Of a stretch of 64,000 bases of DNA, positions 5,747-60,915 are shown in pieces. The position numbers and the translations under genes were made by a program. A model generated the notes under the pieces. It was not told the origin of the DNA. It ran no database searches and saw nothing but the letters and a program-made list of their open reading frames with translations. Origin of the DNA: Rhizophagus irregularis (taxonomy: Eukaryota); contig NC_089432.1 in NCBI RefSeq assembly GCF_026210795.1, positions 2,852,001 to 2,916,000 of the forward strand, in the 5' to 3' direction. Numbering within the stretch: the first letter of the stretch is position 1; each line of letters starts with the position of its first letter.

Positions 5747-6003
5747 TTTATATATATATTTCTGGGTCCTTTCCAAATGATCATCACAAATTTTTTAACG
5801 AAATGCAAAATGAGACTGATACGCCACAGTCGCCACACTGCCACACAAAAAGTCACGTGCCGGTGATTTTTTGGACCATACATTTACTAATTTGATTATA
5901 TGGAAATTTATTTATAAGAACTATTCTGAATGATCATCAATTAATTTTTGACCATAAAGAACCATTTTTGTTGATAAAATTTTTTGGTTTACTTCATTGC
6001 ACT

Positions 6004-17414: not shown

Positions 17415-17559
17415 ACTTTGAATAACGCCTATGTAACGCTATCCCTGCCGCGGATGGACTTCAATGTTTGTTACTAAAAAAGTAAACTCTATCACAAGGT
17501 CCCATAAGTTTTTTTTCGTCCTGTTTTGTCAATAAATTTTTTCACTTACTTCATTCACT

Positions 17560-19933
17560 ATGTCTAATATTAATAATAATAATAATAACGAAATGAAAAA
17601 TAACGGGAATACAGATGAATGGATAAATTGGATTGAAGAAGCGATTGATAAAGAATATTTAAAATATTATGAGTATGAAAATTTTAAAAATATTCAAGAA
17701 ATTGGATCCGGAGCATTCGGAAAAGTTTATCGTGCAAATTGGAAACATTTTGAAGATTATTTAGCGTTAAAATCTTTTTTTAATCTTAATAACGTCACCA
17801 TAAAAGAAATTGTTAATGAGGTAATTTTATAAAAATATATATACTATGTATATATATATTATTTATTTTTGCATATTCTTTGTAAATTTAAAGAAGTGTA
17901 ATTCAAATTTTTTTTTTTAAAAAAAAAACTTTTAAATGATTATACATTTATTATTTTAGCTCAAACTTCAACTTGACGTAAGCTTTCATAATAATATTAT
18001 TCGCTTTTGCGGAATTACAAAATTTGAATCAGGTATTGATAATTTTTACAATTACGTATATTTATTTTTAAAAATGTTTTTTTTGCGTAAATTCAATAAA
18101 TAAATAATTATTATTAATTTTTTAATTTTTTTTTTAGAAAATAAATTCGACCAATCAAAAAATTATTTGTTGGTAATGGAGTACGCGGACGGTGGTACTC
18201 TTCGAGACTATTTAAAGTATAACTTTAGTAGACTTACTTGGATCGAAAAATATAACTTGGCTTATCAATTAGCTTGTTCTATATCATGTCTACATGATGA
18301 AGGAATCGTTCATCGAGATTTGGTAATTTTTTATTATTAAACGATAATAATAATATTCCATAAAGTTAGCTTACTTTTGTTTGTACATTATAATAGCATT
18401 CTCGTAATGTGTTGGTTCATCAGAATTCCATCAAGTTGGCAGACTTTGGGTTATCGAAAAGGATTGATGATGCAACAAAAACACAATCAAAATTGCTTGG
18501 TATGATTCCTTATATTGACCCAAAAGTATTAGTGGATGAAAATTTAAAGTTAAATGAAAAGAGCGATGTATACAGTATTGGAGTATTATTATGGGAAATA
18601 TCAAGTGGAAATTCACCATTTCATGAAAAGACAAATAAGGTTAGTTTAATCTATAGTATTTTGCAAGGTAAAAGAGAAGAGATTATTCCTGATACTCCTA
18701 TTGATTATTCTAATCTCTATACTGGTAAATATGATTTCAATATATTAAATATAACGTTTCTTTATTATTTATCGAAATAATTGTTTAATCAGATACATAT
18801 TTTAATTATTAGATTGTTGGAATGGTGAACCAAGTAAACGACCATCCATACATGAAGTTGTTGATAGGTTAAGAAAATTTGTTATAAATTCAAACAGAAT
18901 AACAATTTATCAACAGAATGATATGTCTAATCAAACTAATATCAAGCCAAATGATAATCTAGGTTCAGTTAATAGTGGAAATTCGTTATCTGGGGAATTT
19001 TCTCAAGTGATCAAAAATTTTGGTAATACGAATTCAAATGAACTAGATATGATGTTTGCAGATAAATTCAGAGATAAAATTTCATCTGAGAAAATAAGCA
19101 TATTAGTTAATGAAGTAGTTGATCTCATTTTTAAAGAGATTAATGAAAGAAATGTTGCAAAGCGACGTCATGTTCTCAATTATCTTAATAATCATAATGT
19201 GAATTCAAAAGAAATTTATGATTGGTTATTATCTAATGAATCTAGTAATACAAGTTTTATTTTTTTACTTGGATATTTTAATTATGTGGGGATTGAAACA
19301 ACTAAGAATTATGAGAAAGCTTTCGATTTATTTATTAATGCACTAGATAAGGATAGCCTATTAATACAATTTTTTGTTGGAGAATGTTATGAAAATGGAA
19401 ATGGTGTTACAAAGAATGAAAATCTAGCTTTTGAATATTATGAAGAATTGTCCGATATAGGGTATGCAATGGGTCAATTTAAATTAGGCTGGTTTTATGA
19501 AAATGGATTAGGCGTTAAAAAAGATTTTAAATTAGCAGCTCAATTTTATGAAAAAGCTGCAAATAATGGACATTTGTTAGCTATGCATAATCTTGGAAAT
19601 TTCTATAGACGTGGGGTCGGTGTTGAAATGAATCATCATAAAGCTTTTGAATTATTTAAAAAATCAACTGAAGGAAAATATTCAGGTGGAATAATGATGT
19701 TAGGATATTGTTATGATCTTGGTATTGGAATTGATAATGATAAGCAAAAGGCAGTTGAGTTGTATGAAAAAGCAGCAAATTTAGGACATAAGGTGGCTCA
19801 ATATAATCTTGCTATGATGTATGAAATAGGTGACGTAGTTGAAAAAGATTTAGATAAAGCAATTTATTGGTATGAAAAATCTGCTAAGCAAGGAGATAAA
19901 GATGCTCGAAATAAGTTAGATGGATTTATATAA
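17560..19933 (+). CDS. Tyrosine-kinase-like protein kinase with Sel1-like repeats (5 exons), paralog of 6004-8467
   Basis: Exons 17560-17820, 17960-18032, 18138-18322, 18397-18724, 18813-19933, with the same intron positions as the first copy. GSGAFGKV, HRDLHSRN and DFG intact. Multiple Sel1 repeats. Confidence 0.93.
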
Positions 19934-20073: not shown

Positions 20074-21115
20074 ACCAATGAGTTTGTTTAAATAGAAAAT
20101 TTTTGTAATACTAAGTAAATTGCTTATAATTAGGAATTCAATATAAGTAATAATTAGTTGACAAAAATTAATAAAATAATATGTATTGAATTATAAGTGT
20201 AAATTTAGATCTCGTCCCTTTGCGTGATGTTTAAATCTCGCCTTTATTTCAAAAAAGGATATTTTTATGCCGATCATTTAATTCTGACCAGAATTAAATA
20301 CGTCTGATTTAATGAAACCCCCCTTCCCGAAAATTCAATAAGTCAAAAATAATATTAGAAACCATCTTTGTTGCTTTAAGTAAACTTGCAGAGCAGGGGA
20401 AAATACACATAGTAAACATTTATTAAAAAGTTTGTATATTAAGATTTTCTTTTTTTGTTATAGGATGCGAAATTTTAAAATCATACAGGGGCAAAAATTA
20501 CACGTTCTCGACCCTCCTCATATTACTTTCTTGACCCGGTCAAAATAGGCATGATCATGTATGACAAAAATTTATTTTCTTGACCTGCAAAAAAAACACT
20601 GACGTATTGTTATTTTTCTTTTATAGACACAATCACACAAAGAGATTAATTGAAAAAAATAATATTAATACGAAGTGGGTCAAGAACGTAATTTTTGCAT
20701 CAGGGGAGGCATATCACGGGCTTTAATTATATGGCATGGGATTTCAAGTTACACAATTTAAACTATTTATACATGCTAGTTTAAAGGTTACGGTTACACT
20801 TGTATTTTTTTAGTTATATACAGTAGATTATGATTCAAACCTAGTATAATAAATGATTAATTTTCTATTTAAAATTGTTTTGTCTTTTTAAAGAAAATAA
20901 TTGTTAGAATATTAATAAGGGAATGTTCTAGTCTAAATTATTAAAATTAATTAACTAACAAATTTTATTAATCTAATGATTTATTTACAACAACAATTAC
21001 ATTATCATAAACACAAGTTATATATAAAGTAAAATAAAAGAATTTAGTTAGTTTAAATTATAATTAAATATTATATTATATAAACAAGTAATAATAGAAT
21101 TAATAAATAACTTAC

Positions 21116-22242
21116 AAACTATTTAATAAAGAATTTGTTAGTAATAATAGAATAAAATAAATAACAGTAGTTTAAATTATATGTAAGACGGGGTGATGAT
21201 CACCGGTGGCTGAAATTATGACGATCGACCAGCATTAAAAAATATAGTGCCGGTATAATTGATAATTCTGGCCAACGGTGATGATCACCCTGGTGATTTG
21301 AAGTAAAAATCATAATAAAATTAAATAAATAACTCATAACTTACCAACTAAAGAAATACAAAATAATTTTTAAATAAAGAATTTAGTTAGTTTAAATTAT
21401 ATGTAAATACTATGATATAATAGAATTAAATAATTAACATACCATCTATAAATAATTTTTTAAATAAAAGAATTTAGTTTAAATAAATTATAATAAAATT
21501 AAATAAATAACATATAACTTACCAACTAAAAGACATTACAAAATAATTTTAAAGAATTTAGTTAGCTTAAAATTATATAAATAATAGAAATATAGGTATT
21601 TATAACTTACACCCTAGTATTAATTAATTAATTATTAGTTAAATATAAATGTAATACAAATATTTTACTGCATATTAAATATATCACTTACAATCTGGTT
21701 ATTTAAATTAAGAATATAATTAGTTGAATTATATAAAATATTAAAACAAATAAATATAATATTGTAACTTACTATCTGTAATACAATTAATTATTAAATA
21801 GTTATTTAAATAAAGAATTTAGTTATTTTGAATATTATGCAAAATAAATAAAGTAAAAAAAAAATCTAATAACTATCAACTTACTGACTATATTGATTAC
21901 ATGAAATATAACAAAAATGATAAGTAATTCTATTATTATTCAATTGTAATATAACTTATTAACTTACGAGCTAAAAATATTTAATATAATTTTTTGTATA
22001 ATATAGTTAATTTAAATTATATTTATATATTATGTAAGGTATAAATAATTATAGGTAGTATTTAAATGTATTTACAAATAAAAATTTAATATTTTAGCAT
22101 GTTTAATATACCTTTAGATTCCCTGATGCTACTTTCTTTAAATTCTTCAGAAACTAATTTATTACATTGCAAGTTTGTTAAAAATTTTAGAGTTCTAATT
22201 ATATACTATATAATTATTACCTTTATTATTACTTTCAGCCAT
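21116..22242 (-). pseudogene. Orphan, truncated copy of the micro-exon N-terminal cassette (no kinase domain follows)
   Basis: Exons 22242-22221 (MAESNNK) and 22153-22112 (VSEEFKESSIRESK). Then 3-nt exons, each flanked by AG/GT: CTC (21968-70), TCA (21885-87), ATA (21773-75), ATT (21692-94), GGT (21611-13), TTG (21523-25), ATG (21443-45), TTG (21345-47), TTT (21116-18). Inverted homolog of ~34090-35000. Confidence 0.75.
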
Positions 22243-24620: not shown

Positions 24621-25588
24621 ATAGTAATACGTATTCCAAATTATTTCGTAATTACATTATTTCAAATTATTATCAATGAAGGCGAAGTAAAGGAGTATTT
24701 TTGCCGCGTTTCTCTATGGTATTGCGCCACGTTGAAATTTACAATTGATAATTTGAAAATGTGAGAATTTGATGTAAATAATTATTTTAAACCAGTCATC
24801 CGTAAAATCGTAAATTATTAATGAGGACAAAGTAAAGGAGGTGTATAATTATTTTTGCTATGTTTTTCTGTATTGCATTTAAAATATGGATTATCACTTG
24901 AACTTGAGCGAAATGTTTCGGGCATCAAACTTTATAATGAATCCAAAAAAGTCTACTTCTTACTTTTTTAAAGTGGTAGAAGTACTGTATATCCAAATTA
25001 TTTTCTGAAATTAACAAAATTAATAAAATTAACTAATATCCCGATTTAAAAATATTTTTATATTTTCTTCAAAATGCACAATAAAATTTACCGCCAATTA
25101 AATGAATCAAAATGGCGAATTTTTCTAATTAACCAAATAAGAAAATAAAATATGAGTAAATGATTTTATAACTAATTTTTATTTTTATTTTCTTATGTTT
25201 TGTTTCTTAATTAAATACTCTTTGTATGTACAAAAAAATTTATTTATGAAAAAAAAAGCATAATAACGTCTAGTAATATGCAAGTAATGTTACCATTCGT
25301 CATTTCTTAAGCGATATTAAATCTTCATTTTATTTTATTTACATGATTTTCATGATATACATTCGAAGATATGCCATTAAGTAATACAAACTAGTGAATC
25401 GCCTAAACCTTGTGAAGCCCGGACTAATAATTTCCCATCCATGTTGATCATTTGATCATCAACTTATAAGGATGTGATACAAATTAGCTTTGTGCAACCT
25501 ATTTATTTTTAAAATTAAAAAAAAAAAATCATTACCAGTTAATATGCTGTAAGCGTACACCACTTGGTTTTTAAAAAAAGAAAAAAAA

Positions 25589-27063
25589 ATGACATCACTT
25601 TTTTATTCCAATCTTTCAAAAGACCTCTCCTTAATATTAAATAATGCTGACGATTACAATGTCATTATCCATGTTGGTGAAAACGACAATAAAAAAGAAT
25701 TTTATGCGCACTCAGTTATTTTACGTGCTCGTTCTTCTTATTTCAAGAGTGCACTTTCTACTAATTGGATTACAAAGAAAAATAATATGATTATATTTAA
25801 TAAACCAAATATTACTCCAGCCATTTTTGACATAATTATAAAGTAAGGATAATAATATTATTATTTTATTACATTATATTTGTTTTAATAAATTTTAATT
25901 TAAGATATATTTATACCGGAGAGCTTGATTTAACTAAACAACCGGGTGAAAATATTCTTGGATTGTTAATTGCATCTGATGAATTACTCCTTGAAGAATT
26001 ATTTGAATATGTTCAAAATTATTTAATTGAAAAACGAACTAGTTGGATTTATCAAAATTTCGTTCTCGTTCTTAATGATGTGTTTAGACTCGACAGTTGT
26101 AAGAAGCTACAAAATTATTGTCTTGAGTCTATCTGTAAGGATCCACTTCCATTTATTACTTCAAAATCTTGTCTGTTATTAGATGATAATGTCGTTTTTA
26201 GCTTGCTTAAAAGAGATGATTTACAAGTTAGAGAGATTATAATTTGGAACTTTTTAATCGAATGGGGTATTGAACAAACTCCTGATTTGCGAAGTGATAG
26301 AAATAATTGGAATAATGAGAATTACGAAACATTGGAGAAAACTTTAAATCAATTTATTCCTCTTATTCGGTTTGTGGGAATTTCTCATGAAGAATTAATT
26401 GATAAAGTTCAACCTTATAAGGCTATTATTCCCAATAATCTTTTAAAAGAAATTGAAGAATTTTGTTATAATAATATCTTACCAACTTTACCTCTCAGAA
26501 CGAGAAAAATTGAATCAAATATTATCAAATCAGAACTTATAAATTTAATAATAGTTAATTGGATTGACAAAAAAGATATTATGATTACTCGTACTGGTAA
26601 TGATCCTTTATATAAATTTAATCTTATTTATCGTGGTAGTCGTGATGGAATTAATAATAAATCATTTAAAAATAAGTGTAATGGAAGGGTAGCAAGTTTA
26701 GTTTTAATCAAAGTTTCAGGATCGAATAGAATCTTTGGTGGATATAGTTCTATTGGATTTAGTGCTTTAGGAAATAATCTTTGGAATAAATATGATGGAA
26801 TATTTTATGATTCATCAGATAATTTTATTTTTTCATTTGAAAATAGTGAAGATATACATAATATAAAAATAGGTCGTATAATAAATAATGATAAAGCTAT
26901 TCAAGATATTGAAACTTGTGGTTTTAATTTTGGTTGGAGTTCATTATCAATGATTAATACTAATTTAAATATTGTTAATCATGATATTTATGAAAGGATT
27001 TTACCTACAGAAAAAATTTTTTATATTACGGAATTAGAAACTTTTTCTGTAACTAAATTATAA
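25589..27063 (+). CDS. BTB/POZ-BACK-TLDc domain protein (2 exons)
   Basis: Exons 25589-25842 and 25905-27063 (phase-2 GT-AG intron). BTB motif FYAHSVILRARSSYF, BACK-like helical region, TLDc motifs LIYRGSRDG, IFGGYS, FIFSF, ELETF. Confidence 0.93.
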
Positions 27064-29610: not shown

Positions 29611-30697
29611 TGGCAGTCAGCATATTAACTTTTGATATCAATAATGATAATTATTTATTTAATGAAATTTTATTTGCAAATATTAAAATTTAAGTCACCC
29701 ATTTACGATTTTAAAGAAAAAAATCACCATATATTTATTTTTATTTAAGTGTAAAAATAAAAGAAACAATAACAATAAATAAAAGGATAAGTAAATTACA
29801 ATAATCAAGGAGAAAGATGCTAATAAAAAAATGAAATAACAGTGGGAGTAATGGAAAGTAATAGAAGATGAAAGGTAGTAAAAAAGAGTAATGAGAAGTG
29901 ATAGGAAACAAAAAGGAGAAATAGGACATAATGAGAGATGAAAAGGAGTGATGGGAGACGAAAAGAAGTGATGGGAGACAAAGAGGAGTGATAAGCAATA
30001 AAAAGGAGTTATGGGAGACAAAAAGAAGATGAAGAGGAACAAAAAGAAGTGATGGGAGACGAAAAGAACGAAAAAGAGTGATGGTAGACGAAGAGGAGTG
30101 GTGGAAGACGAAAAGGAGCGATGGGAGATGAAAAGAAGTGATGGGAAGATGAAGAGAAGTAAAAATTTATTAAAATTGTAAATTTAATAAAAAATTTTCC
30201 AATAAATTTTCAATCAATTTTTATAAAAAAAATTAAAAAAAAATTTCAAGCCAAAATTCTCAATACACTTATTAAAAAAAAACTATTATCAATAAAATTT
30301 TCTATTAAGATTTCTAAACAAAATTCTCCATCAAAAAAATAAAAAAAATTTTCAACAAACAATTCTCTAATGAAATTCTCAATCAAAAAAAATATTCCTG
30401 ATTAAAAAGATTCTTACCACCTATTAAAAAAAATTCTCAAAGAATTTCTATATCAAAAAAAAACTCTCCTATTAAAAAAAAAATCTTTACCGAAATTCTC
30501 TATCAAAAAAAAGTCTTCCCTGTTAAAAAAATTTACACTAACGAAATTATCTATCAAAAAAAAATTCTATGATGAAATTTCTATCAAAAAAAAAAAAAAT
30601 TCTCAGCGAAATTCTTTAATGAAATTCTCTATCAAAAACAATCCCCCTATTAAAAAAAATTCTCTAATAAAATTCTCCGTCAAAAAATACTTTCACC

Positions 30698-34091: not shown

Positions 34092-37000
34092 ATGGCTCAC
34101 AGTAATGATAAGGGTAATAATTATATGTAATATATATAGCGTATAATTAGAATAAAATTTTTAAACAAATTTGCAATGTAATAAAATTAGTTTCCGAAGA
34201 ATTTGAAGGAAGTACTAGTACCAAGGAATCTGAAGGTATATTGAACAGGCTGAAATATTAAATTTTTGTTTGCATACTATCTATAATTGTACCTTACATA
34301 ATAATTTAAGCAAACTAACTATTATACAAAAAATTATATTAAATAATTTAGCTCGTAAGTTAATAGGTTATATTACAATTGAATAATAATGGAATTACTT
34401 ATCATTTTTGTTATATTTCATGTAATTAAATAACTTATTTAATAATTAATAATACTATAGTCAGTAAGTTATTAGTTATTTAAATATTTGGTTTTTTACT
34501 TTATTTTATTTTACATAATATTCAAAATAACTAAATTCTTTGTTTAATAACTATTTGATTAATTAATTGTATTACAGTTGGTAAGTTACAATATCATATT
34601 TATTTGTTTAATATTTTATATAATCCAACTAATTATATTCTTAATTTAAATGACCAGATTGTAAGTAATATATTTAATTTGCAGTAAATATTTTGTATTA
34701 CATTTATATCCAACTAAATAGTTAATTAATAATACTAGGGTGTAAGTTATATATACCTATATTTCTGTTATTTATATAATTTAAATTAATTAAATTAAAA
34801 TTATTTTGGAATTTCTTTTAGTTGGTAAGTTATATGTTATTTATTTAATTCTATTGTTACTTAATTTAAACTAATTAAATTTCTTTATTTAAATAGATAG
34901 TAAGTTATAAGCTATTTATTTAATTCTATTATTACTTGTTTATATAATATTTATATATAATTTAAACTAACTAAATTTCTTTATTTAAATAGATAGTAAG
35001 TTATAGGTTATTTATTTTATTACTTGTTTATATAATATTTACATATAATTTAAATAACTAAATTCTTTATTTAAATAGATTGTAAGTTATAAGTTATTTA
35101 TTTAATTCTATTATTACTTATTTATATAATATTTATTTATAATTTAAACTAATTAAATTATTTATTTATAATATTATTTAATAATATAGGGTGTAAGTTA
35201 TTTATTTAATTCTATTATTACTTATTTATATAATATTTACATATAATTTAACTAACTAAATTCTTTATTTAAAAAAATATTTTGTAATTTCTTTTAGTTG
35301 GTATGTTATAACTTATAAGTTATCTATTTAATTCTATAATATTTATTTACATTAGTTGTTTACATATATGATTTATATATAATTTAAAATTAACTTCTTA
35401 TTTAAAAAATTATTTTGTAATTTCTTTTAGTTGGTAAGTTATAAGTTTTTTATTAATCCTATTATTACTTGTTTATGTGATAATTAAATATAATTTAAAC
35501 CAATTAAATTCTTTATTTAAATTATTTAAATAGATGGTAAGTTATAAGTTATTTAATTCTATTATTACTTATTTATATAATATTTACATATAATTTAAAC
35601 TAACTAAATTCTTTATTTAAATAGATGGTAAGTTATAAATTATTTATTTAATTCTATTATTACTTATTTACATATAATTTTAACTGACTAAATTCTTTAT
35701 TTAAATAGATTGTAAGTTATAAGGATTGATTTAATTCTATTATTACTTATTTATATAATAATATTTACATATAATTTAAATTAACTAATAAATTCTTTAT
35801 TTAAATAGATGGTAAGTTATAAGTTATTTATTTAATTCTATTATTACTTATTTATATAATATTTATTATTTACATACAATATAAACTAACTAAATTCTTT
35901 ATTTAAAAATTTATTTTATAGGTGGTATGTTATTTATTTAATTCTTTTATTACTTATTTATATAATATTTATAATATGAGTAAATTTATTCATCGCACGT
36001 GCGATGCATCGCCACTTTCCTTTTTTGTAAATTATTTATGTTGATCAACCTGCTTATACATCGCCACCCCCCTTAAAATGGCAATGATAAACATAAAAAT
36101 TTGCATCGCACGTGCGATAAATAAATTATTTCTTATAATATTTACGTGTAATTTAAACTAATAAAATTCTTTATTTAAATAGATTGTAAGTTATAAGTTA
36201 TTTATTTAATTCTATTATTACTTATTTATATAATACTTATATATAATTTAAACTAACTAAATTTTTTATTTATAGGGCGTAAGTTATATTTATTTAATTC
36301 TATTATTACTTACTAATTATATAATATTTACATACAATTTAAACTAACTAAATTCTTTATTTAAAAAATTATTTATAGATGGTATGTTATTTATTTAATT
36401 CTATTATTACTTATTTATATAATATTTTCATATAATTTAAGCTAACTAACAAATTCTTTATTTAAATAGATGGTAAGTTATGAGTTTTTTATTTAATTCT
36501 ATTATTAGTACTTATTTATATAATATTTACATATAATTTAAACTAACTAAATTCTTTATTTATAATATTATTTAATAATATAGGGCGTAAGTTATTTATT
36601 TAATTCTATTATTACTTATTTATATAATATATACATACAATTTAAACTAACTAAATTCTTTATTCAAAAAATTATTTCATAGATGGTATGATGTTATTTA
36701 TTTAATTCTATTATTACTTATTTATATAATATTTACATATAATTTAAACTAATTAAATTCTTTATTTATAATATTATTTAATAATATAGGGCGTAAGTTA
36801 TTTATTTAATTCCATTATTACTTATTTATATAATATTTATTATTTACATACAATTTAAACTAACTAAATTCTTTATTTAAAAAATTATTTTATAGATGGT
36901 ATGTTATTTATTTAATTCTATTATTTAATATTTACATATAATATGAATTAACTAAATTCTTTATTTAAATAGATAGTAAGTTATAAGTTATTTATTTAAT

Positions 37001-39476
37001 TCTATTATTACTTGTTTATATAATATCTATATATAATTTGAACTAACCAAATTCTTTATTTAAATAGATTGTAAGTTATAAGTTATTTACTTAATTCTAT
37101 TATTACTTATTCATATAATATTTACGTATAATTTGAAGTTTTAAACTAACTAAATTCTTTGCTTAAAAAATTGTTTTATAGATGGTATGTTATTTATTTA
37201 ATTCTATTATTACTTATTTACATAATATTTTCATATAATTTAAACTAACTAAATTCTTTATTGAAAAATTATTATTTAATAATATCTGATAGGGAGTAAG
37301 TTATTTATTTAATTCTATTATTACTTATTTATCATATAATTTAAACTAAATTCTTTATTTAAAAAATTATTTAATATTATAGGGCGTAAGTTATTCTATT
37401 ATTACTCATTTATATAATGTTTACATATAATTTAAACTAACTAAATTCTTTATTAAAAAATGATTTTGTAATTTCTTTAGTTGGTAAGTTATAGGTTATT
37501 TATTTAATTCTATTATTACTTATTTGCATATAATTTAAACTAACTAAATTCTTTATTTAAATAATTATTTTATAGATGGTATGTTATTTATTTAATTCTA
37601 TTATTACTTATTTATACATATAATTTAAAGTTTTAAACTAACTAAATTCTTTATTTAAATAGATACTAGTAAGTTATAAGTTATTTATTTAATTCTATTG
37701 TTACTTATTTATATAATTTACATGTAATTTAAACTAACTAAATTCTTTATTTTTATAGATGGTATGTTACTTATTTAATTCTACTATTACTTATTTATAC
37801 AATATTTATATACTAATTTAAACTAACTAAATTCTTTATTTATAAAAATTGATTTAATAATATAGCTTGTAAGTTATTTGTTGTTTGTATTTTATATAAT
37901 ACTTATTTGTTAATTGAATTTTTTCATTCAAATTTCTGTTACTTTAGTTGGTAAGTTGTAGGTTATTATTATTATATATATTTATACAAAAACTAAGACA
38001 TACAGTATATTATATTAAATTTTTATTTAAATTTTAGAGTAAGTGTTGATTTTAATCTTATAACTTTTGATATAAATTTCAATATAATTTCAATTATTTA
38101 AATTTGTAGATTTGGAAAAAGTGGAAATGTAAATATGGATAACTTTATTTTAGAAAAAAAATTAAAATGGATTCCTTATGATAAATTTAAAAATATTGAA
38201 TATCTTGATAAAGGAGGATTTGGTACTATATATAAAGCTAATTGGTTAATTAATAATGAAGATAAAGAAGTAGTTCTTAAATGTCATGATAATTTAAGTG
38301 AAAATTTAAATGAATTTTTAAATGAAGTATGATAATATATTATTTTATTTTATAATTTAAATCATAATTTATTTATACTAATATATTATGATTTTTTTAT
38401 AGTGGAAATATCACAAAAGTTGTTTAGGTTCAGATAAAATTATTTATTTTTATGGCTTTACAAAAGCTCCAAATACTTTGAAATATATGATGGTAATGGA
38501 TTATGCAAATGGAGGTAATTTAAGAGGAAACTTAACAAGAATAATCGAAATTGTTTGGAATCAAAAATTATATATGTTACATGAAATTATTTCTGGACTT
38601 AATAATATACATGAACAAAATCTTATTCATTGTGATTTTCATGATGGTAATATTTTAAATCATTATGAGAATAAAATTTATATTAGTGATTTAGGATTAT
38701 GTAAACCTGTAAAATCATTTATGAAAAAATATGATATTTATGGTGTTATACCATTTATGGCACCTGAAGTTTTAAGAGGCAAATCTTATACTCCAGCTAG
38801 TGATATTTATAGTTTTGCTATGATTATGTGGGAATTTACATCTGGGGTAACACCATTTAATAATAGAGCACATGATGTTCAACTTAGTTTAAGTATTTGT
38901 AAAGGTGAACGTCCTGAAATTATCAAAAATACTCCACAATGTTATGTAGATTTAATGGAAAAGTGTTGGGATGAAAACCCATTAAAAAGGCCATCTTCTA
39001 AAGAAGTTTTGAATATTATTAAAAATTGGGTTTTTTTTTCAGGTAAAGGGGAAGTTGAAGATATTAATGAAAAATTGAAATGTAATATTATGGAATTTAT
39101 AAATGCACCAATTGGGCATAACAATAATCTTTCTATTGAATCTCATCCACAGTCATGTTATACAAGTCGCTTACATGGTTTTACTAGTAAACAATTGAAT
39201 GAAATTCTTGGAAGTAGAGATTTACAAGCTTATTATTCAAGTCAATCTACTAGTGGAAAAGTGAATGAAATTCTTGAAAGTGAAGATTCACAAGCTAGTG
39301 TAAAAGTGGATGAAATGCTATTAAGTGAAAATTTGGATGATTGTATATTTAATTTGAAGTCATTAGGTATGTAATATAGTATATAAAAAGAATTAAATTT
39401 TATGAATTATTTATATGAAATTAATTTAATTATTTAATTATTTAATTAATTAGATATTAAAACAGACAAAAAATAA
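34092..39476 (+). CDS. Tyrosine-kinase-like protein kinase with a micro-exon-encoded N-terminal segment (predicted 42 coding exons, ~460 aa)
   Basis: Exons 34092-34113 (MAHSNDK), 34191-34235 (VSEEFEGSTSTKESE), 37 micro-exons in 34352-38038, then 38110-38326, 38403-39366, 39454-39476. Kinase motifs KGGFGTIY, VVLK, HCDFHDGN, DLG, APE, SDIYSF. The kinase part is certain; the N-terminal model rests on splice signals and frame closure. Confidence 0.8.
34236..38109 (+). other. Tandem intron/micro-exon array (38 introns, 37 micro-exons)
   Basis: Repeating unit GTAAGT/GTATGT ... (A)ACTAAC-type branch site ... YAG, followed by a 3-nt exon. Introns are about 70-130 nt; one is 258 nt because of a MITE. 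Confidence 0.85.
35978..36132. mobile_element. MULE-like MITE inside a micro-exon-array intron
   Basis: TIRs GAGTAAATTTATTCATCGCACGTGCGATGCA / TGCATCGCACGTGCGATAAATAAATTATTTC. Perfect 9-bp TSD TTATAATAT. Confidence 0.88.
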
Positions 39477-43747: not shown

Positions 43748-44593
43748 ACTTGTTATTGAGATTATCATTGTTTTTATTAGTTCAAAAATCTGAATTCTTT
43801 CTTTATTTGGTGATACAATAATTTGTTTTGTCATAATTATGCTCTATTAACTTTTGGTTTTTGTATTATTTACTGGAAAAAAATTATTAAACCAAGTAGC
43901 CAAAAGGAGGAGAAAATTAAAATGAGGATGCAACAAAGAAGTTTAAGCATTGTTGTAACAATATTTCTATCATAAATATCTTAATATCTTATTAAATGTA
44001 ATGCTGGATGCACAGATATATGAAATGGGAATAACTGAACGGAGTAAAAGTAGATAAAGCTTCGAATAATTTATAAAAAAATTAAACATAACTCGCATAA
44101 ATGAAGCAAAAAAAGAATTAAATTAAGTGAACTCTAACTTTAATTACAATCATTTTCCATGATTCAAAAAAGTTGTGATTTCAACAGTTAAAGGGTAGGT
44201 ATTTATTATATAAATTTTATTATTATAAATTATATTTAATAGGGTGCCTATTAACCTAAGCATTTACATAAAATAGATTTTCTATAATAAAGCACTGTGA
44301 GGGTATAAGTTATAAAAAATATCAACCTAAACATTAAAAAATTTTGGTAAAAAAAAATTAGAGATTAAAAGTTTATTACGGCTTAAAAAAATTTTGATTA
44401 ATATTGCATGATCGGCATCATCAATTAGACGAGTTTTTTAATTCTTGACATTATAAGTTTGTTATTTACGTCAGTGACGTTACACAATACAAATTGTGCG
44501 ACAATATCGGAATCACCATTTCCGAAAATTTAAATTTATTCATAGTAAAATGTGATACACAAATACCTCTCTTTTTCTCCTTTAGTTTACAAT

Positions 44594-46165
44594 ATGTCAT
44601 GTTCAAAAATATTTTCAGGAAATTTTCCCGAATTAACTTATGAAATTATAAAATATTTTCAAAATGATTTTTTAACTTTGCATTCATGTATTTTAGTTAA
44701 CAGATTATGGTGTCGTTTAGCAACTCCATTATTATGGGAAAATCCTTTTTCAATTCATACTGAAAATTATAATTATATTGAAATTTACTTACAATATTTA
44801 AATGATGATTTTAAAGCGAAATTAAAAGAATATAATATTATTATTAATTCATTACCTTCAAATACACTCTTCAATTATTCTAGTTTTTTAAAATATTTGA
44901 ATATATCTAAGTTTATTTCTTCTGTTATAAATTGGCTTGAAGCTACTAATGAAACTTCAATCTATTCTGATTTTATAAGATTAACATCTGATATATGTTT
45001 ATCATTATTGAAAATATTTATTGAAAATGAAGTAAATTTAAATGTTCTTGAAATTGACTTCAAATATACTCCTTATAAGATAAATTTAGATGATATTCTT
45101 GAGTTAATTTTACAGAATACAAATTTCATTCACAATATTAGAAATTTAAACCTTTATATTGTAGAAAATAAGGAACTTAAACATCGTATATTACCAATAA
45201 TTGAGTTACATCAAAACCTTAAAAAAATTTTATTAGATAATAGTTTTTTTTCATATCAATCATTATTGTTATCAAAAGATTATAATTGTTCAAACACCTT
45301 AAGTACAATTATTTTCTTTTACGTTGACTTTGAAGGTATAATCAATTTAAATAGAATATTTGAACAATTAAATGTTTTAGAATCCGTTCATATAATTCAT
45401 TGTTCTTCTTTAAATACTAGTTTTACTCAACAAATTATTAATTTAACTAAACCATTTAAATTAAAGTCTTTATTTATAGAAAATATAGAAGAGTTATCAG
45501 AAATTGAATCATTACAATTATTAATACAAAAGTCTTGTGATTATTTAGAAAATTTTGGGTATGATTGCGGACTTATTTATCCACATGAGCTAAATACTGG
45601 GATCCCTCAGGGAATACATCAATTATTAGATTTAATTATGATACATTGTAAAAATATCAAATTTCTTGATCTGGATATAAATGATAATCGGATTATTTTT
45701 CCAGCACTCAATTTAATTGAAAATATTAAACATAATCTTAATTATCTTTCAATCGATATATATGATAATATTAAAGAAAATAATTCATTTGTAATACAAA
45801 GATTAGGAGAAATTATTCCTTTTAAATTAGAATATTTGCATTTATATCTTTATTACATTGAAGCATGTGATTTTGAAGTATTTTTAAAAAGTTCTCAAGA
45901 TACATTTATTAAGAAACTATTGATCAATAACTTTAACTTTACTGAAGGTCAAGATATTTTACCCTCTATAAAAACATATATCATGAAAAAGAGAAGGGTT
46001 AAGTATTTAGCTATTAATGGTGCTTTCTTTAGATCTGAATTCGTTAGTGATGAATTGTTTTCATTGAAAGACGAAGTGAAGGAATTTATGTTGTATGATA
46101 TTAAAGTGCAAAGTTATCATGACTCAATAATTAACTTGTATGATTATATGAAAGAAGTTAATTAA
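44594..46165 (+). CDS. F-box-like N-terminus with degenerate LRR-like C-terminus (expanded glomeromycete-type family)
   Basis: Intronless ORF from ATG 44594. F-box-like FPELTYEIIKYF..LHSCILVNRLWCRLATPLLWENPF, followed by LxxL-rich repeats. Confidence 0.85.
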   Translation: MSCSKIFSGNFPELTYEIIKYFQNDFLTLHSCILVNRLWCRLATPLLWENPFSIHTENYNYIEIYLQYLNDDFKAKLKEYNIIINSLPSNTLFNYSSFLKYLNISKFISSVINWLEATNETSIYSDFIRLTSDICLSLLKIFIENEVNLNVLEIDFKYTPYKINLDDILELILQNTNFIHNIRNLNLYIVENKELKHRILPIIELHQNLKKILLDNSFFSYQSLLLSKDYNCSNTLSTIIFFYVDFEGIINLNRIFEQLNVLESVHIIHCSSLNTSFTQQIINLTKPFKLKSLFIENIEELSEIESLQLLIQKSCDYLENFGYDCGLIYPHELNTGIPQGIHQLLDLIMIHCKNIKFLDLDINDNRIIFPALNLIENIKHNLNYLSIDIYDNIKENNSFVIQRLGEIIPFKLEYLHLYLYYIEACDFEVFLKSSQDTFIKKLLINNFNFTEGQDILPSIKTYIMKKRRVKYLAINGAFFRSEFVSDELFSLKDEVKEFMLYDIKVQSYHDSIINLYDYMKEVN

Positions 46166-46878: not shown

Positions 46879-47541
46879 AAAGTCACATTGAACTAGACAA
46901 TTTTGAAAAATTACATTACTAATTTGTTTAATAAGTGGGTTAAAAAAAAATGTTGATCAGTTTATAGCCACCTGTAGTAAATATTTCACTAATTTTATTT
47001 CATTTTTTTTTTTTTGAATTTTCAAGATTTTTGATTTAAATATGTGTAAATAGCTGAAGGATACGATTTAGATAATTTTGAGAAAAGTGGGAACAAATTT
47101 TAAGACAATTAATATGTTTGTAATTAAAATAAATCTGGTCATATTTAGATTCCTAGTCTGAATTATGTACTCCGCTAAATTTATATCATTATGTTATGGT
47201 TATCTCCAAAATAATTGATTGGTGTAATGGATTTGATCAATAGATTCATATTATGAATGTTGACCATTTTTGTTGACGATAACATAATAATTTATCACTA
47301 AATTAGAATAAATTTCATAAATTGGAAAAATTTAATATGTATACAATCTATAATAATTTTGTCCAGAATTATTAAAGTGAAACAATCGCTGATTGACATA
47401 TAATTACGTTATGATGTTTACGCAAAATTGGCGAAAATTGTGCGACAAATATCGGGATCGTCATTCCGAAAATTATACTTAAACAATCCATAGTAAAATG
47501 TGATACACGATTACCCTCTCTCCCCTTCTTTCGTTTACAAT

Positions 47542-49086
47542 ATGTCATGTTCAAAAATATTTTTAGGAGATTTGCCCGAATTAACTTATGAAGTTGTAAA
47601 ATATTTTCATAATGATTTTTCAACTTTATATTCATGCGTTTTAATTAACAGATTATGGTGTCGTTTAGTGACTCCATTATTATGGGAAAATCCTTTTTCA
47701 ATCCGTACCAGGAACTATAATTATTTAGAAGTTTACTTACAATATTTAAATGATGATATTAAAACACAACTAAAAGAATATAAAGTTATTAATAATTCAT
47801 TACCTTCAAATACATTCTTTAATTATTCTATGTTTTTAAAACATTTGAATATACATAAGTTTGTTTTATCTTTTGAAAATTGGCTACGAGCTAAAACTCC
47901 AACCTTCGAAATTAGATTTACAATACTATTGAATGATATATGTACATCACTATTTAAAATATTTATCGAAAATGAGATAAAATTACATACTCTTGAACTT
48001 GAGATTTACTTTTTATATAGTGACACAATTTATGATAATATTATTAAATTAATTTTAAAGCATCCAAATTTCATTCATAATATTAGAAATCTAAAATATC
48101 TTGTGCGTGATTTTTGTACTAATATTCCAGTTAATGATCATCTATTACAAATAATTAAATCACATCAAAATTCAAAAAAAAATTTATTATCAGGATATAT
48201 TGATTTTCGTCTATATCAATCATTATTATTTTCAAAAGATTTTAATTGTTCAAATACCTTAAATACAATTACATTCTATCGAGCCAATTTGATTCATTTT
48301 ACTAGTAACATATTCGAACAATTAAATGTTTTGGAATCTGTTCATATTATTTATTGTTATTCTTTAAATGAGAATTTTCTTCAACAAATTAATAATTTAA
48401 CTAAACCATTTAAATTAAAATCTTTATTTATGGATGGTTTAATATCAATCGAATCAATAGAATTATTATTACAAAAATCTGGAAGTTATTTAGAAAATTT
48501 TGGGTATAAAATTCGCAATTCACTAATAAGTCAACGACATTTAGAATTAATTATAAAATATTGTAAAAATCTCAAATTTCTTGATTTTCATGGATATGAA
48601 AATCGGGTTACTTTTCGAGTAATCGAAAATATTATTAAACAAAATCTTAATTATCTTTCAATCAATATTGGGAGAGATTGTTATGGTAATATTAAAGGTA
48701 GTTCAATCATATTACAAAATTTAGGTCAAGTTCTCCCTTCTAAATTAGAATACTTGAGTTTGACTCTTACTATTAAAAGAAGTAAATTTAGAGTATTCTT
48801 AGAAAATTCCCAAAATATTTTTATTAATAAATTATTAATAATGCAAATAGGTAGTTATGATATTTTACATTATACAAAGGAATTTATTATGAATGAAAAA
48901 AGAGTCAATTATTTAGCTATCAGGAACAGTTATAATATAGATTTGTATGATTTGAGAGATGTAGTAAAGGAATTTAAGTTACATAATATTAAAGTTCGAA
49001 GTTTTTATGATTTAAGTTTATCTGATAAACTTAACCATCCTAGAGATTCTTTAAATAATAATCTTATTGATTATTTACGAGGATGA
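47542..49086 (+). CDS. F-box-like/LRR-like protein, tandem paralog of 44594-46165
   Basis: Intronless ORF from ATG 47542 with LPELTYEVVKYF..LYSCVLINRLWCRLVTPLLWENPF. Upstream sequence is shared with the first copy. Confidence 0.85.
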   Translation: MSCSKIFLGDLPELTYEVVKYFHNDFSTLYSCVLINRLWCRLVTPLLWENPFSIRTRNYNYLEVYLQYLNDDIKTQLKEYKVINNSLPSNTFFNYSMFLKHLNIHKFVLSFENWLRAKTPTFEIRFTILLNDICTSLFKIFIENEIKLHTLELEIYFLYSDTIYDNIIKLILKHPNFIHNIRNLKYLVRDFCTNIPVNDHLLQIIKSHQNSKKNLLSGYIDFRLYQSLLFSKDFNCSNTLNTITFYRANLIHFTSNIFEQLNVLESVHIIYCYSLNENFLQQINNLTKPFKLKSLFMDGLISIESIELLLQKSGSYLENFGYKIRNSLISQRHLELIIKYCKNLKFLDFHGYENRVTFRVIENIIKQNLNYLSINIGRDCYGNIKGSSIILQNLGQVLPSKLEYLSLTLTIKRSKFRVFLENSQNIFINKLLIMQIGSYDILHYTKEFIMNEKRVNYLAIRNSYNIDLYDLRDVVKEFKLHNIKVRSFYDLSLSDKLNHPRDSLNNNLIDYLRG

Positions 49087-50856: not shown

Positions 50857-53800
50857 ATGGAAGGAAGTTCATGTCAGGTAAATTACAATTTAAGTAATAT
50901 TAATTATTTTAATTAATTAAAAATTGAGTTTATAATAATTTCATAAACATGTAGAGCGGAAGTTCTTCTAGCAATACTATTCCAGAAATTCACGACTCTG
51001 TTTTTTCATATAAAATTGTTTCGCATGAAAACTTCATCAATAATAGTATTCTTTTAAAATTAGAAGAGGATGGATTTATAACTCCCGATGAAAAGGCAGA
51101 AGAACTTATTAAGAAACTGACCGGCATAAAATATTTGTATGTATTAAAATTACTTTTTGAAAATTTACAAAATGAATTTTCACCTCAAATTCTCCGAGAT
51201 ACTTTGGTTGCCTTAGCGGATCCGACTCCATTCGATTTTTATGCAAAACAAAGTGTGACTAGATTGGAGTTACATTTAAGAACTTGGGTAACAGTCTTAG
51301 AACGGATATGCTTTTCACCAATAGTACTTAGTAAAGAACTTAGAGATAAAGTTTATAATTCTTTATCAAAATTTGCAGAAATTCATCGTAAAACGACTCA
51401 AGTTTTTGAAATAGGACTTGATAATAATTTTAGATCAAATTTTAACCAATTTAATCAACAAAACAACGATCAAGATGGCCAAATTATCAACAAAAAGCGT
51501 AATTATAACATTGACTTCTTATTAATCCACTTACGAGACACATTACATAGTTTGCGTGATGATGAAACTTGGTTTCAAGAAATTATACGAAGAACTAAAG
51601 AATTACTTAAAGCTACATTGAATATTACCCCAGGAATTTTATCAGTGGCGGGAGTTGCTCTTCCAAATGATAATTGTTCAATCTTATCAATGCTTACTCA
51701 AATACGTAAAAGCTTAAGTTTTAAATATCCTGTAGCATCTTATTATGTAGATTGGAGAATTATGTTGATGTTTCAACATAATCTTTTCACCTGGTCTGAA
51801 GGTACTGAAATGATAATTAGTAAGAAATTCTGCGAGTTGGTATTAATGGAATATCTTTGGGGCTTCTTGGAAAGAGAATGGATTGACATAACTAATAAAT
51901 CTATTTTAGATTCTCAAACAAAATTTGATGAAGTATCAAATAAAGTTACTAAAGCTTTAAAAAACACTGGAAATTTCTTAAATGATCTCGCTGGAAATGA
52001 ACCTATTGCATTACCACATACCTTATGGTTTGGAATATTGGATCTTGCACAAAACCTTATTCAAAAATCTACTCAAACTGCTACATATGGTCTTTGTTAT
52101 TATTTAGCAATTGAATCACTTAATAAAGCTCCAAGTAGTTTCATTCAATTTAAAGCAGTTGAAATATTATTACATTTACATAATATTGATAGTAAAATGT
52201 TTTCAATGATTGATGATGATATTGATCAATATATAAAAAAATTAAATGAAAATAAATCATTTGAAGAAAAATTTCAAAATTTATTATTATTTATTAAAGG
52301 AAAATATCTTGAAGACTTAAAAATTTTAAGTGAAAATATTGGAAAAGAAAAGGAAGGAAAAGGAAAAGGAAAAAGTTTAAGTCAAAATTCATATTTAAAG
52401 AGAGAACAAACATCAAATTCTAATGTTATAGATATTATAGCAGATGAAATGACATGTCCAATTAGTAGTGAACCAGAGGATCAATTATGTATTTTAATAT
52501 GTCAACATACATTATCATTAAATAATTTAAAATTATTAAAACAAAAATTATGTCCTAAATGTAGAGAAAAAATTGAAGAAAATGACATCAGATATTTACC
52601 ACAAAATTCCATTTATAAAAATTTATATATTAAATTTTCTGAATCTGGACATATTATACCTCCAATTAAATTAGAAAATTCAGATCAAATATATGATAGT
52701 GATGATTCAGATAATTCAGAAGCTGATCTTATATTAGCTAAAAAGAAAAAATCTATGAATTCAATTATTAAATTAAATTCAAATATATCATTATCATCAA
52801 TACTTTCAAGAAATTCAAAAAAACAACATCCGACTTATCAAAATATTATAAAAGAAATAAATGAAAAACATTATGAAAAAGCTGAATCATTGTGCAAAGA
52901 ATTTTTAAATTTTTTTCCTAAAAGTTATTCTTTAAGATGCATTTTAGGTTTTATTTATAGATGTCTTAAAAATTATGAACAAGCACACTTCTATTTGAAA
53001 GAAGCCATTAATTTAAAACCAAAAGAACCAATTGCTTATTTAATTTGTGGAGAAATATTTTTTTGGCAAAGTAACTATAGTGAATCAGTAAATAATTTAT
53101 GCATGTCAATAGATTATAAGGTTAAAATAAATAACGTATATATAATAACTGGAAATAGTAACTTATTTCATGACTGTTATGGTACATATTACTATAATAT
53201 TGCATTAAGAAATGATCCAGATAATTATTTATGTCTTAAGTATAATGCATTTTGCTATGCAAAGTATGGTTATTATAATAATGCTTTAGAAATGTTAGAT
53301 AAACTGCTGAATATCAACAATGATGATTCATTAATTTTATGTTATTATGGAGAAATTTTATATATCATAGGACAATATAGTAAAGCTATATCATATTTTA
53401 CAAAAGCAAATATTATTGATCCAGAAAATACTCATAATTTAATTAAAAGAGCTATTGCCTATTATACTCTTCAAGATTATAATAAAGTTTTATTAGATCT
53501 TGATAAAGTTATACAATTAGATCCATTAAATAGTTTAGCATATTATATCAAGTGTCAAATTTATTATGCAAAAAAAGATATTGATAATTCTATAATGGTA
53601 TTTAAAAAGTATAAAGAATTATTAGATTTTAATGATATATTAGCAAAAACTCGACTATTTCATCTAGAATATTTACTGAATAAAAATAATTCTACAGAAT
53701 TAAATAATAAATTAACAAAAATTAAAATTAATCAAATTTCTAATATTCAAGGTAGTGTATTACTACTTTTTGTTAGATGCAAAGTATACATAGAATTAAA

Positions 53801-54878
53801 AATGTATCATGAAGCAATGTTAGACTTGGACTTGTTACATTCTAAACGTTATGGATATGAATATAATTCATATATTCATTTATTACGAGAATACACGGAT
53901 TTTTGGTTATATTTAAATGTTAATAACAATAATGATCTTTCCGAACTTGGAATTGTTAATGGATTTAGTAAACACATTTATGAAAGTAAGAGAATGCTTA
54001 ATTTATTAATTTCTTATAATGTTTTATAATTGATCTATTAATTAATAAATTATTTAGAATCACACGTTTATTTTATATCAAATCTGGTAAATTTAAATAG
54101 TGAACTTCATCAACTTCAAGAAAATGAAATAAATAGGTAAATGAATGTATTCATTATGCATTTTAAAATTTCAAAATTGTGTGGTAAATTTTTTAACTAT
54201 GAATTTCTTAGTTTATCAGGAAAGATAATAAGTTCAAAAAATGAAGAGCTTCATTTGAATTTGCCCATGCTATATTTTGAGTGGTGTGATGGAATTATTT
54301 GGAAAATAAATGTTAAAGAAATACTAAATAAAGATTGCTTTATAAAATTTATAATTAAAAGCACTGTAAGTTTATTAATTGCTAAAATCTCTTTTTTCAC
54401 TATTAAAATGTTATTTTAAATTAATATATGGATTTATTATTTCTGCATAGTATAAGGATTCTAAACTAAAACATTATGAACATGTGTTAAAATATGAAGA
54501 TGTGTTAAAACTTGAGGGATTAGGTTGGATTGAATATAAACTTCCAAAAATTAGAAATAACCATTATATACAACCTTCAATTGAAATAAATGGTTCTATT
54601 AATATGGTATATTTCATTTTACTTGTGACATTTTATATAAAAGAAAATTGGTTTGAGTAACTCAGCATTATTATTTATTCATATAGCAAATAGATTATTT
54701 CCGACATGGGTCTAATAGAGAAAAGATAACTTATATTCCTAACGTATGTATAGGTGATTTATTACCAAATTTTTATAAAACTTGTCCAAATATTCCAGAA
54801 ACTTTTGAAGATAAATATTTTTCAAGAAAAGAAATGGAAAGCTTGCTTGAGCTGAAGGATATAATTAACCACCTATGA
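50857..54878 (+). CDS. Large protein with an uncharacterised helical N-terminus, a U-box/degenerate RING and TPR repeats (6 exons)
   Basis: Exons 50857-50877, 50955-53985, 54058-54136, 54212-54365, 54451-54606, 54687-54878, phase-consistent. U-box/RING-like MTCPIS...CQHTL...CPKCREKI. TPR-like YYGEILYIIGQYSKAISYFTKANIIDPEN. Confidence 0.85.
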
Positions 54879-60057: not shown

Positions 60058-60269
60058 TGAAAAAAATTATTATAGAGAGTACTATGGAGTTAAAAAAAAA
60101 AATAAATAAATAAAATAAAAATGAAAAGGCCAAACATTAACCCTTTATAAGTAAACATATTAGTCAGGTCATTGATCTGTTACGTTATTTGGTTAGTCAA
60201 TTATGCACGTTATCTATTATGCATAATAGTTGTTTTGTGATTTGTCACGTGATATTTCGATATTGTTAA

Positions 60270-60634
60270 TTCAATGACGGATAACTTCCCGACAACCATT
60301 TTCTCGGCGTACCCTTTACCCAACAATGATTGTTCCGACATGGCAGATACCCAAAGGACTTTTACCAATAGGCACATTTCCCCAAAATGAGTGATTGGAT
60401 AATCGTTCGTGGACAATTTAGCATATTTTCTTTTTCTTTCTGTCGATAAAATGTCTGTCGGAATATATTTGTTGGGATATATGTTGTTTGGATACGTATT
60501 GTTGGAATGTGTTGTTGGGATAATATCACGTCGAGAAAGTCCATTCGGTAATATGTCGTGCCGACCGCCGATAAAACGTTGTCGAGCAAAGGATATTTTG
60601 GAGAATGGTCGTCGGGAAAACCGTGGTATGTCCC
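60270..60634. mobile_element. Degenerate TIR element upstream of the pseudokinase gene
   Basis: TTCCCGACAACCATTTTC vs GAGAATGGTCGTCGGGAA and further imperfect inverted blocks. TSD not found. Confidence 0.55.
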
Positions 60635-60798
60635 TTTAATATGAAGTATAAAATGATTCAACATAATTTCTTATATAATTTTCCTAATTTTGTTAATTTC
60701 AAAGATTTCTTTGTATGAACAATGTAAACAAATACAGACAGACCTATACTGTTGTTTTGGGAAAATATATCGGTATATCAAATTATCGTTATCGTTAC

Positions 60799-60915
60799 GG
60801 GTCTGGTTCACTTCATCGACAAACATTTCACGACAAACGTTTCACCGACAAACGTTTCACCGACAAACGTTTCACCGACAGGGTTATTTTACCGACAGAC
60901 AATCATTTCACCGAC
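60799..60915. repeat. 15-bp tandem repeat ACAAACGTTTCACCG, probably a TE subterminal array
   Basis: About 4-5 units after GGGTCTGGTTCACTTCA. A similar same-orientation block lies at 61245-61305. Confidence 0.7.

What the first reader, a model, noticed from the sequence alone, without database searches (positions are those of the whole stretch)
34352..37950. Junction-built codons with a stop-proof exon alphabet: a possible combinatorial splicing code
Seen: all introns in the array are phase 1, so each codon is the last base of one exon plus the first two bases of the next. Exons begin only with AT, TT, GG, GT, CT or TC, never AA, AG or GA. Any skipping among the 3n exons therefore keeps frame and cannot create a stop. 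The one exception is joining a T-ending exon directly to the final 1-nt exon, which gives TAA. The single longer exon is 6 nt, also frame-preserving. Inference: skipping would both shorten the peptide and change residue identity at the new junction (e.g. D to H/N/Y, G to W/R), so one locus could yield a very large isoform library. Caveat: the restricted alphabet may simply reflect descent from a few founder units.
Basis: partly seen in the sequence, partly recalled or inferred. Interest (0 to 1): 0.88.

Follow-up and report, generated by a model that had tools for sequence, protein, structure and literature searches.

The report
One-codon exon array before fungal kinase
A kinase gene of a mycorrhizal fungus (Rhizophagus) has 37 tiny predicted exons in a row, mostly three bases long, that would spell a variable 38-residue front end; related kinase genes carry similar arrays that do include stop-making exons, so the 'stop-proof code' is likely inheritance from a few copied units, while the array itself is real and is missing from the public gene models examined.

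Summary
34352-38038 carries 35 three-nt, one six-nt and one one-nt predicted exons. With two upstream exons they join in phase 1 into a stop-free 455-aa ORF ending in a Rhizophagus high-copy kinase. No 3n exon starts with AA/AG/GA; 0 of 666 skip joins make a stop. RNA shows the kinase exons spliced and 127 unread letters upstream of the last acceptor; the microexon joins were not read.

The 'stop-proof code' is not supported. The units descend from about 8-9 founder types (chance about 0.1). Homologous arrays sit before 16 of 33 related kinase loci, and 23 of 98 of their exons start AA/AG/GA, so 70 of 757 skip joins would stop. Caveat: those 23 are all in a sister subfamily.

Best reading: a tandemly duplicated, fast-changing microexon module that varies the kinase N-terminus mainly at DNA level; alternative splicing is plausible but untested. 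Known precedent: Tuber nank codon-sized mini-exons. This scan noted such arrays before on other DNA (HET genes, protists). New here: split-codon phase 1, in mycorrhizal kinases.

The parts
34092..34113 (+). Predicted first coding exon (ATG, 22 nt, ends in phase 1)
   Evidence: similar N-termini in annotated paralogues P0005, P0008, P0012, P0013
34191..34235 (+). Predicted exon 2, 45 nt, phase 1-1, E/S-rich
   Evidence: homologous segment in P0005, P0008, P0013, P0045 and in the window paralogue
34352..37950 (+). Array of 36 predicted microexons (35 x 3 nt, 1 x 6 nt) between 72-130 nt introns (one 258 nt); four amplified unit classes plus singles
35970..36140 (.). Insertion with 39-nt inverted arms (MITE-like) that makes one intron 258 nt
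38038..38038 (+). Predicted 1-nt exon that turns phase 1 into phase 2
   Evidence: a 1-nt exon at this place in L001-L004 and a 4-nt one in L007, L008
38110..38326 (+). Kinase exon A (N-lobe); its acceptor is used in RNA
   Evidence: contig of X1 lies on 38110-38326 with 0 differences, depth 0 at 38040-38097
38403..39374 (+). Kinase exon B to the stop (PF07714, PF00069)
   Evidence: joint 38326-38403 GT..AG in all 4 runs laid
21040..22242 (-). Truncated paralogue: exons 1-2 and 9 three-nt units, no kinase behind them

Best explanation
This is a Rhizophagus high-copy kinase gene whose N-terminal 38 residues are predicted to be spliced together from 37 microexons, an array that arose by tandem copying of acceptor-exon-donor units and likely varies mainly at the DNA level, with its stop-free alphabet likely inherited from a few founder units rather than evolved as a code. 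Shown: the units, their four amplified classes, the open phase-1 frame, transcription and splicing of the kinase exons, and like arrays before related kinases. Inferred: short fungal introns are removed one by one so that most mRNA keeps most exons; unequal crossing-over or conversion adds, drops and reorders units between paralogues and isolates; change falls on the third exon base, which is the first base of the next codon and nearly always changes the residue (D/N/Y/H, G/R/W). The product would be a paralogue-specific D/G/H/W/N/Y-rich segment at the place where array-less relatives have a CxxC..CxxC motif, probably a variable binding or sensing arm of the kinase. Some skipping is likely tolerated as a by-product.
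For: Exon start follows flank class in 26 of 28 classified units (0 of 20000 permutations as high). Window gene and paralogue share units 1-6 in order at 92% identity, then continue with different classes. In class A (11 units) diversity is 0, 0, 0.73 at exon bases 1-3 against 0.05 in the flanks, and 0 of 17 flank sites are as variable; class C is similar, classes B and D are not. 28 of 36 exons have T at base 2 = codon position 3, the commonest third base in the kinase (204 of 395), and a codon ending in T cannot be a stop. Homologues hold 23 of 98 stop-capable starts, while neighbouring stop joins are borderline rarer than in shuffled order (2 v 5.2, P=0.049), which fits selection on the all-in product. 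One X1 contig runs unbroken for 127 letters upstream of 38110 (112 microexon letters predicted) and stops matching exactly at 38110, which argues against direct joining of exon 2 or of the last 3-nt exon (inference from the alignment edge).
Against: The microexon joins were never read in RNA. Contigs drop minor isoforms, so cannot exclude a library. L010 has a stop in its all-in phase-1 reading yet an open kinase to the contig end (114 of 114 codons of exon B), and L009 has a 1-nt unit and an open kinase (72 of 72): young pseudogenes, or a need to skip. The Tuber precedent reports extensive alternative splicing. No isolate-to-isolate comparison of this locus was possible. The sensing role is inference only.
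Confidence: 0.5

Rival explanations
1. Tuber-like isoform generator: exons are skipped often, one locus gives many N-termini, and stop-bearing products are simply wasted. No special alphabet is needed.
For: [quoted passage not shown] All 36 array exons keep frame. L010 and L009 have defective all-in readings before open kinase exons.
Against: One unbroken X1 contig path of 127 letters upstream of the last acceptor (weak). Borderline lack of neighbouring stop joins. Other defective arrays sit on broken kinases (L021/L022, L025).
Confidence: 0.27
2. One reading: selection has purged AA/AG/GA-starting exons so that any combination translates.
For: 0 of 36 at this locus, 0 of 9 in the paralogue and 0 of 5 in L001-L003.
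Against: About 8-9 independent founders give P about 0.1; the paralogue shares 6 units, so it is not independent. 23 of 98 in homologues; 70 of 757 stop joins. Annotated models of the same subfamily that appear to chain these exons in phase 0 hold E/D/N/K residues, i.e. GA/AA starts (P0036, P0042, P0046, P0127; indirect, DNA not seen).
Confidence: 0.06
3. Neutral intron proliferation: the unit copies itself by slippage or unequal exchange and is tolerated because it keeps frame in a dispensable linker; the peptide has no selected role.
For: High-copy, often broken gene family (truncated paralogue; L025 stop); many public models start at an internal Met behind the array.
Against: 36 intact acceptor-donor pairs with no frame-breaking unit at this locus; variation focused on one amino-acid-changing base in classes A and C; arrays kept in two subfamilies.
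Confidence: 0.13
4. The exons are read in phase 0 as a hydrophobic (L/I/M/G/V) stretch, joined to the kinase by a 5-nt exon that uses the GT four bases downstream, as several public gene models imply.
For: 19 of 83 proteins with the motif have 'SK' before it; models P0036, P0061, P0077, P0124, P0127 show such hydrophobic chains.
Against: Exons 1-2 end in phase 1, where the 5-nt form gives a stop; L010 has two TGA exons, stops in phase 0; the sister subfamily enters its kinase exon in phase 1 with no adaptor.
Confidence: 0.04

Closest known systems
Codon-sized (3-bp) mini-exon arrays of Tuber melanosporum nank (NACHT-ankyrin) NLR genes, Iotti et al. 2012 Fungal Biol 116:261 (not held; read only as passages in PMC4986451, PMC13449251, PMC9815663)
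   Same: Tens of 3-nt exons in a row in an expanded fungal signalling or recognition gene family of a mycorrhizal fungus; proposed diversifier.
   Different: Host gene is a kinase, not an NLR; array is N-terminal; Glomeromycotina rather than Pezizomycetes; codons are split across junctions (phase 1) with a 1-nt adaptor; alternative splicing not shown here. The phase of the Tuber introns was not given in the passages read.
Schistosoma micro-exon genes (MEGs) (bioRxiv 10.1101/2023.06.21.545858, passages)
   Same: Runs of very short, mostly 3n exons; variation through the exon set.
   Different: MEG exons are mostly 15 bp, 10-20 per gene, introns 0.1-5 kb, secreted proteins; here 3-nt exons, about 95-nt tandem-copied introns, a kinase with no signal peptide apparent in the predicted N-terminus (not computed).
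High-copy S/T/Y kinase family of Rhizophagus irregularis (PMC8647823, passages)
   Same: Kinase exons 100% identical over 89% of exon A to annotated R. irregularis proteins P0001, P0003; PF07714/PF00069.
   Different: None of the 174 proteins retrieved holds this array's peptide; the two identical ones start at an internal Met behind the array.
Single 1-3 nt exons in fungi (Coprinopsis cinerea: 89 gene models with an exon of 3 nt or less; bioRxiv 10.1101/2024.05.10.593147, passages)
   Same: Shows that fungal splicing can include 1-nt and 3-nt exons.
   Different: There about one per gene; here 37 in tandem.

Membership tests
Tuber nank-type codon-sized mini-exon array | Tens of consecutive 3-bp exons with canonical splice sites | tested here: met
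   35 three-nt units with YAG and GTA[AT]G
Tuber nank-type codon-sized mini-exon array | Host gene is a NACHT-ankyrin NLR | tested here: not met
   PF07714/PF00069 kinase in exon B, no family in exon A; so like nank in layout, not a nank gene
Tuber nank-type codon-sized mini-exon array | Extensive alternative splicing of the mini-exons | tested here: inconclusive
   One search shows splicing at 38110 but not the upstream letters; no transcript-derived N-terminus among 104 short proteins
Tuber nank-type codon-sized mini-exon array | Occurs across an expanded gene family | tested here: met
   16 of 33 related loci have at least one 3-nt unit; 6 of the 33 had under 200 nt upstream; paralogue in the window
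Schistosoma MEG | Exons mostly 15 bp with introns of 0.1-5 kb, secreted product | tested here: not met
   3-nt exons, 71-130 nt introns, C-terminal kinase
Rhizophagus high-copy PK_Tyr_Ser-Thr kinase | PF07714 domain with close R. irregularis homologues | tested here: met
   E 1.3e-34; 109 homologues, all named Rhizophagus
Rhizophagus high-copy PK_Tyr_Ser-Thr kinase | Catalytic activity | not testable with these tools
   Gly-loop, catalytic-loop D..N, D-L-G and APE motifs are visible in the translation; motif names recalled
   23 of 98 such starts; 1-nt unit in L009, 2-nt unit in L021; all in the sister subfamily

The most novel reading that the evidence does not exclude
Arbuscular mycorrhizal fungi run a split-codon splicing lottery on scores of kinase genes: skipping 3-nt phase-1 exons both shortens and recodes an aromatic, acidic N-terminal arm, giving each largely clonal fungus a somatic repertoire of kinase sensors for partners, endobacteria or non-self.
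Probability: 0.25. Interest if true: 0.82.

Novelty: new variant of a known kind. Interest (0 to 1): 0.58.

Why it matters
A model symbiont's largest signalling family appears to carry an N-terminal hypervariable module that the public gene models examined miss or read in another frame. That changes the predicted proteins of many Rhizophagus kinases. It also offers a directly testable source of variation in a lineage whose sources of variation are debated: existing long-read RNA, realigned with 3-nt exons allowed, decides between DNA-level reshuffling and a Tuber-like splicing library. It extends one-codon exon arrays from truffle NLRs to Glomeromycotina kinases in a split-codon form.

Tried and rejected
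No whole genome is held for this window, so no genome-wide census of arrays and no isolate comparison. A 30-nt array motif found 0 matches in genome contigs and 0 in viral contigs. No RNA holder was listed as on record; this blank is no evidence. In one search the loose-end table showed 24 rows and left out 174, among them the letters upstream of 38110; these letters remain unread. Raw reads of X23 and X24 mostly come from other alleles or paralogues (4 of 1211 and 8 of 1388 reads at 99% or more). Protein searches for transcript-derived N-termini gave none (one search listed only 120 of 732 hits). The automatic parse mis-called two window units (missed one ATG, added a false 2-nt unit); window counts therefore use. 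Homologue counts use 14 of the 16 loci with units: L022 repeats L021, L033 was not parsed. Considered and rejected: plain minisatellite (acceptor-donor spacing is fixed at 3 nt while intron length varies); phase-0 hydrophobic reading (see rivals); nested-intron (stwintron, recalled) structure, since no join rebuilds a splice site in a regular way (by inspection only). Iotti 2012 is not held. No fold was run.
Full report
WHAT IS THERE. Between 34352 and 37950 the + strand holds 36 units of the form YAG, a few bases, GTA[AT]G: 35 with 3 bases and one with 6 (37663-37668). A 37th unit has 1 base, at 38038. Introns are 71-130 nt, except one of 258 nt that holds an insertion with 39-nt inverted arms. 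The strict pattern occurs 34 times against a mean of 0.022 in 500 base shuffles and never elsewhere on the + strand. Upstream lie an ATG exon (34092-34113, 22 nt) and a 45-nt exon (34191-34235); downstream lie two kinase exons (38110-38326, 38403-39374). Joined in a script, all 41 exons give a 455-aa frame with no internal stop. Exon B matches PF07714 (E 1.3e-34). All 109 homologues of exon A are named Rhizophagus, two of them identical over 89% of it. The array would supply 38 residues rich in D, G, H, W, N, F and Y.

PHASE. Exons 1 and 2 end in phase 1, and the 1-nt exon brings the frame to the phase 2 needed by exon A. Homologues agree: a 1-nt exon at this place in L001-L004, a 4-nt one in L007 and L008, direct phase-1 entry in the sister subfamily, and two TGA exons in L010 that would be stops in phase 0. 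Several public models instead seem to chain such exons in phase 0 through a 5-nt exon, giving L/I/M/G/V-rich N-termini (P0036, P0061, P0077, P0124, P0127). I read these as mis-predictions; their DNA was not seen. None of 174 proteins holds this array's peptide.

Starts are AT 19, GG 7, TT 6, CT 2, TC 1, GT 1. 0 of 666 ordered joins make a stop; 8 of 36 exons end in T and would give TAA on the 1-nt exon; losing the 1-nt exon shifts the frame.

RNA. On 38040-38900, all 4 runs laid show the joint 38326-38403 (GT..AG), and depth is 0 at 38040-38097. One X1 contig (346 letters; RNA is a guess for this run) fits 38110-38326 with 0 differences and has 127 further letters upstream that do not lie on the intron. 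The all-in model predicts 112 microexon letters, then exon 2. The fit ends exactly at 38110; a direct join from exon 2 or from the last 3-nt exon would match one or two bases further, so this weakly favours the 1-nt (or 5-nt) exon. This is inference from the alignment edge. The 127 letters were not displayed and remain unread, so neither inclusion of the 3-nt exons nor skipping is shown. Raw reads of X23 and X24 are mostly from other alleles or paralogues. A search for short transcript-derived proteins gave none among 104.

IS THE ALPHABET SPECIAL? Units fall into four amplified classes by their flanks, plus singles; exon start follows class in 26 of 28 classified units (0 of 20000 permutations). 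The effective sample is about 8-9, not 36. With 22-23% of starts expected to be AA/AG/GA, none in 8-9 has P 0.09-0.13; treated as 36 independent draws it would be 1e-4, and with 12 founders 0.04-0.05. 28 of 36 exons have T at base 2, the third codon position, where the kinase also prefers T (204 of 395 codons); T-ending codons cannot be stops.

HOMOLOGUES. Of 33 related metagenome loci, 16 have at least one 3-nt unit upstream of the kinase; 6 of the 33 had under 200 nt upstream. In 14 parsed loci (L022 repeats L021; L033 not parsed), 23 of 98 three-nt exons start AA/AG/GA, and 70 of 757 ordered joins would be stops if all are phase 1. L009 has a 1-nt unit and L021 a 2-nt unit inside the array. 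Neighbouring stop joins are 2 against 5.2 expected from shuffled order (P=0.049, non-3-nt units dropped); one of the two lies upstream of L009's 1-nt unit, where the phase is uncertain. Against my reading: all 23 come from six loci of a sister subfamily that lacks the 1-nt exon, and the 5 exons seen in L001-L003 include none. The only sign from the window's own subfamily is indirect: E/D/N/K residues in the phase-0 public models. Also, L010 has a stop in its all-in reading but an open kinase to the contig end (114 of 114 codons of exon B), and L009 72 of 72. These are young pseudogenes or genes that need skipping; the second would favour alternative splicing while still denying a stop-proof code. 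L021/L022 and L025 have broken kinases.

HOW IT VARIES. A truncated paralogue on the - strand (about 22242-21040) has exons 1-2 and 9 units. It shares units 1-6 in order at 92% identity, one exon differing at 2 of 3 bases, and then continues with other classes: the body of the array turns over at DNA level. In class A, diversity is 0, 0 and 0.73 at exon bases 1-3 against 0.05 in the flanks; class C is similar; classes B and D show none at base 3. Base 3 is the first base of the next codon, so change there recodes the residue. This looks like diversifying selection, but was not tested against relatedness or against the constraints of the donor site. Array-less relatives (L015, L017-L020, L024) have a CxxC..CxxC motif at this place, so the array likely replaces an N-terminal module; a binding or sensing role is inference.

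MECHANISM, COMMITTED. Most likely (0.5): short introns are removed one by one, most mRNA keeps most exons, and the repertoire comes from many paralogues and from gain, loss and recoding of units. Next (0.27): frequent skipping as reported for Tuber. Neutral proliferation 0.13; an evolved stop-proof code 0.06; phase 0 0.04.

WHAT IS KNOWN. [quoted passage not shown] I took this lead from earlier scan notes, which list like arrays in fungal HET genes and in protists; I did not check those loci. Schistosoma MEGs differ in exon size, intron size and product (passages). Exons of 1-3 nt occur in Coprinopsis (passages). Rhizophagus kinases are a known high-copy family (passages of PMC8647823). I found no paper on microexon arrays in these kinases: 'microexon'+'Rhizophagus' gave 3 unrelated listings, 'mini-exon'+'kinase'+'Rhizophagus irregularis' 1, none, one unrelated, and none of the 20 listed of 200 held 'Glomeromycot'. 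Subscription papers and supplements of genome papers were not seen and may mention them.

VERDICT. A real and striking gene structure, a new variant of a known kind. The headline idea of a stop-proof combinatorial code is not supported; the isoform library is open. Interest 0.58.

Noticed in passing
window 22242-21040 (-): Truncated paralogue with exons 1-2 and 9 microexon units, an unrelated insertion of about 140 nt before the last unit, and no kinase behind it.
   Followed up: partly
window 35970-36140: MITE-like insertion with 39-nt inverted arms in one array intron; L021/L022 have another such insertion in their last intron.
   Followed up: partly
window 10635-15221 (-): 1528-aa ORF that looks like a Helitron Rep-helicase (motifs recalled, not scanned).
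   Followed up: no
window 5896-8467 (+), 17536-19933 (+), 57826-63822 (-): Several kinase plus Sel1-repeat-like genes (by inspection), without microexon arrays.
   Followed up: no
window 50955-54029 (+); 25553-27063 (+); 44549-46165 and 47497-49086 (+): A long ORF with RING- and TPR-like parts, a BTB-TLDc-like gene and two F-box/LRR-like ORFs (by inspection only).
   Followed up: no
P0036, P0042, P0046, P0061, P0077, P0124, P0127: Public Rhizophagus models with odd L/I/M/G-rich N-termini ending in SK; probably microexon arrays chained in the wrong frame, and so a handle for finding more arrays.
   Followed up: partly
L010:1-2974; L009:1-2270: Long arrays (28 and 22 parsed units) whose all-in phase-1 reading is broken, in front of kinase exons that are open to the contig end.
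   Followed up: partly
window 1994-2529 and 29931-30146: A 20-nt minisatellite family in two places, in opposite orientation.
   Followed up: no
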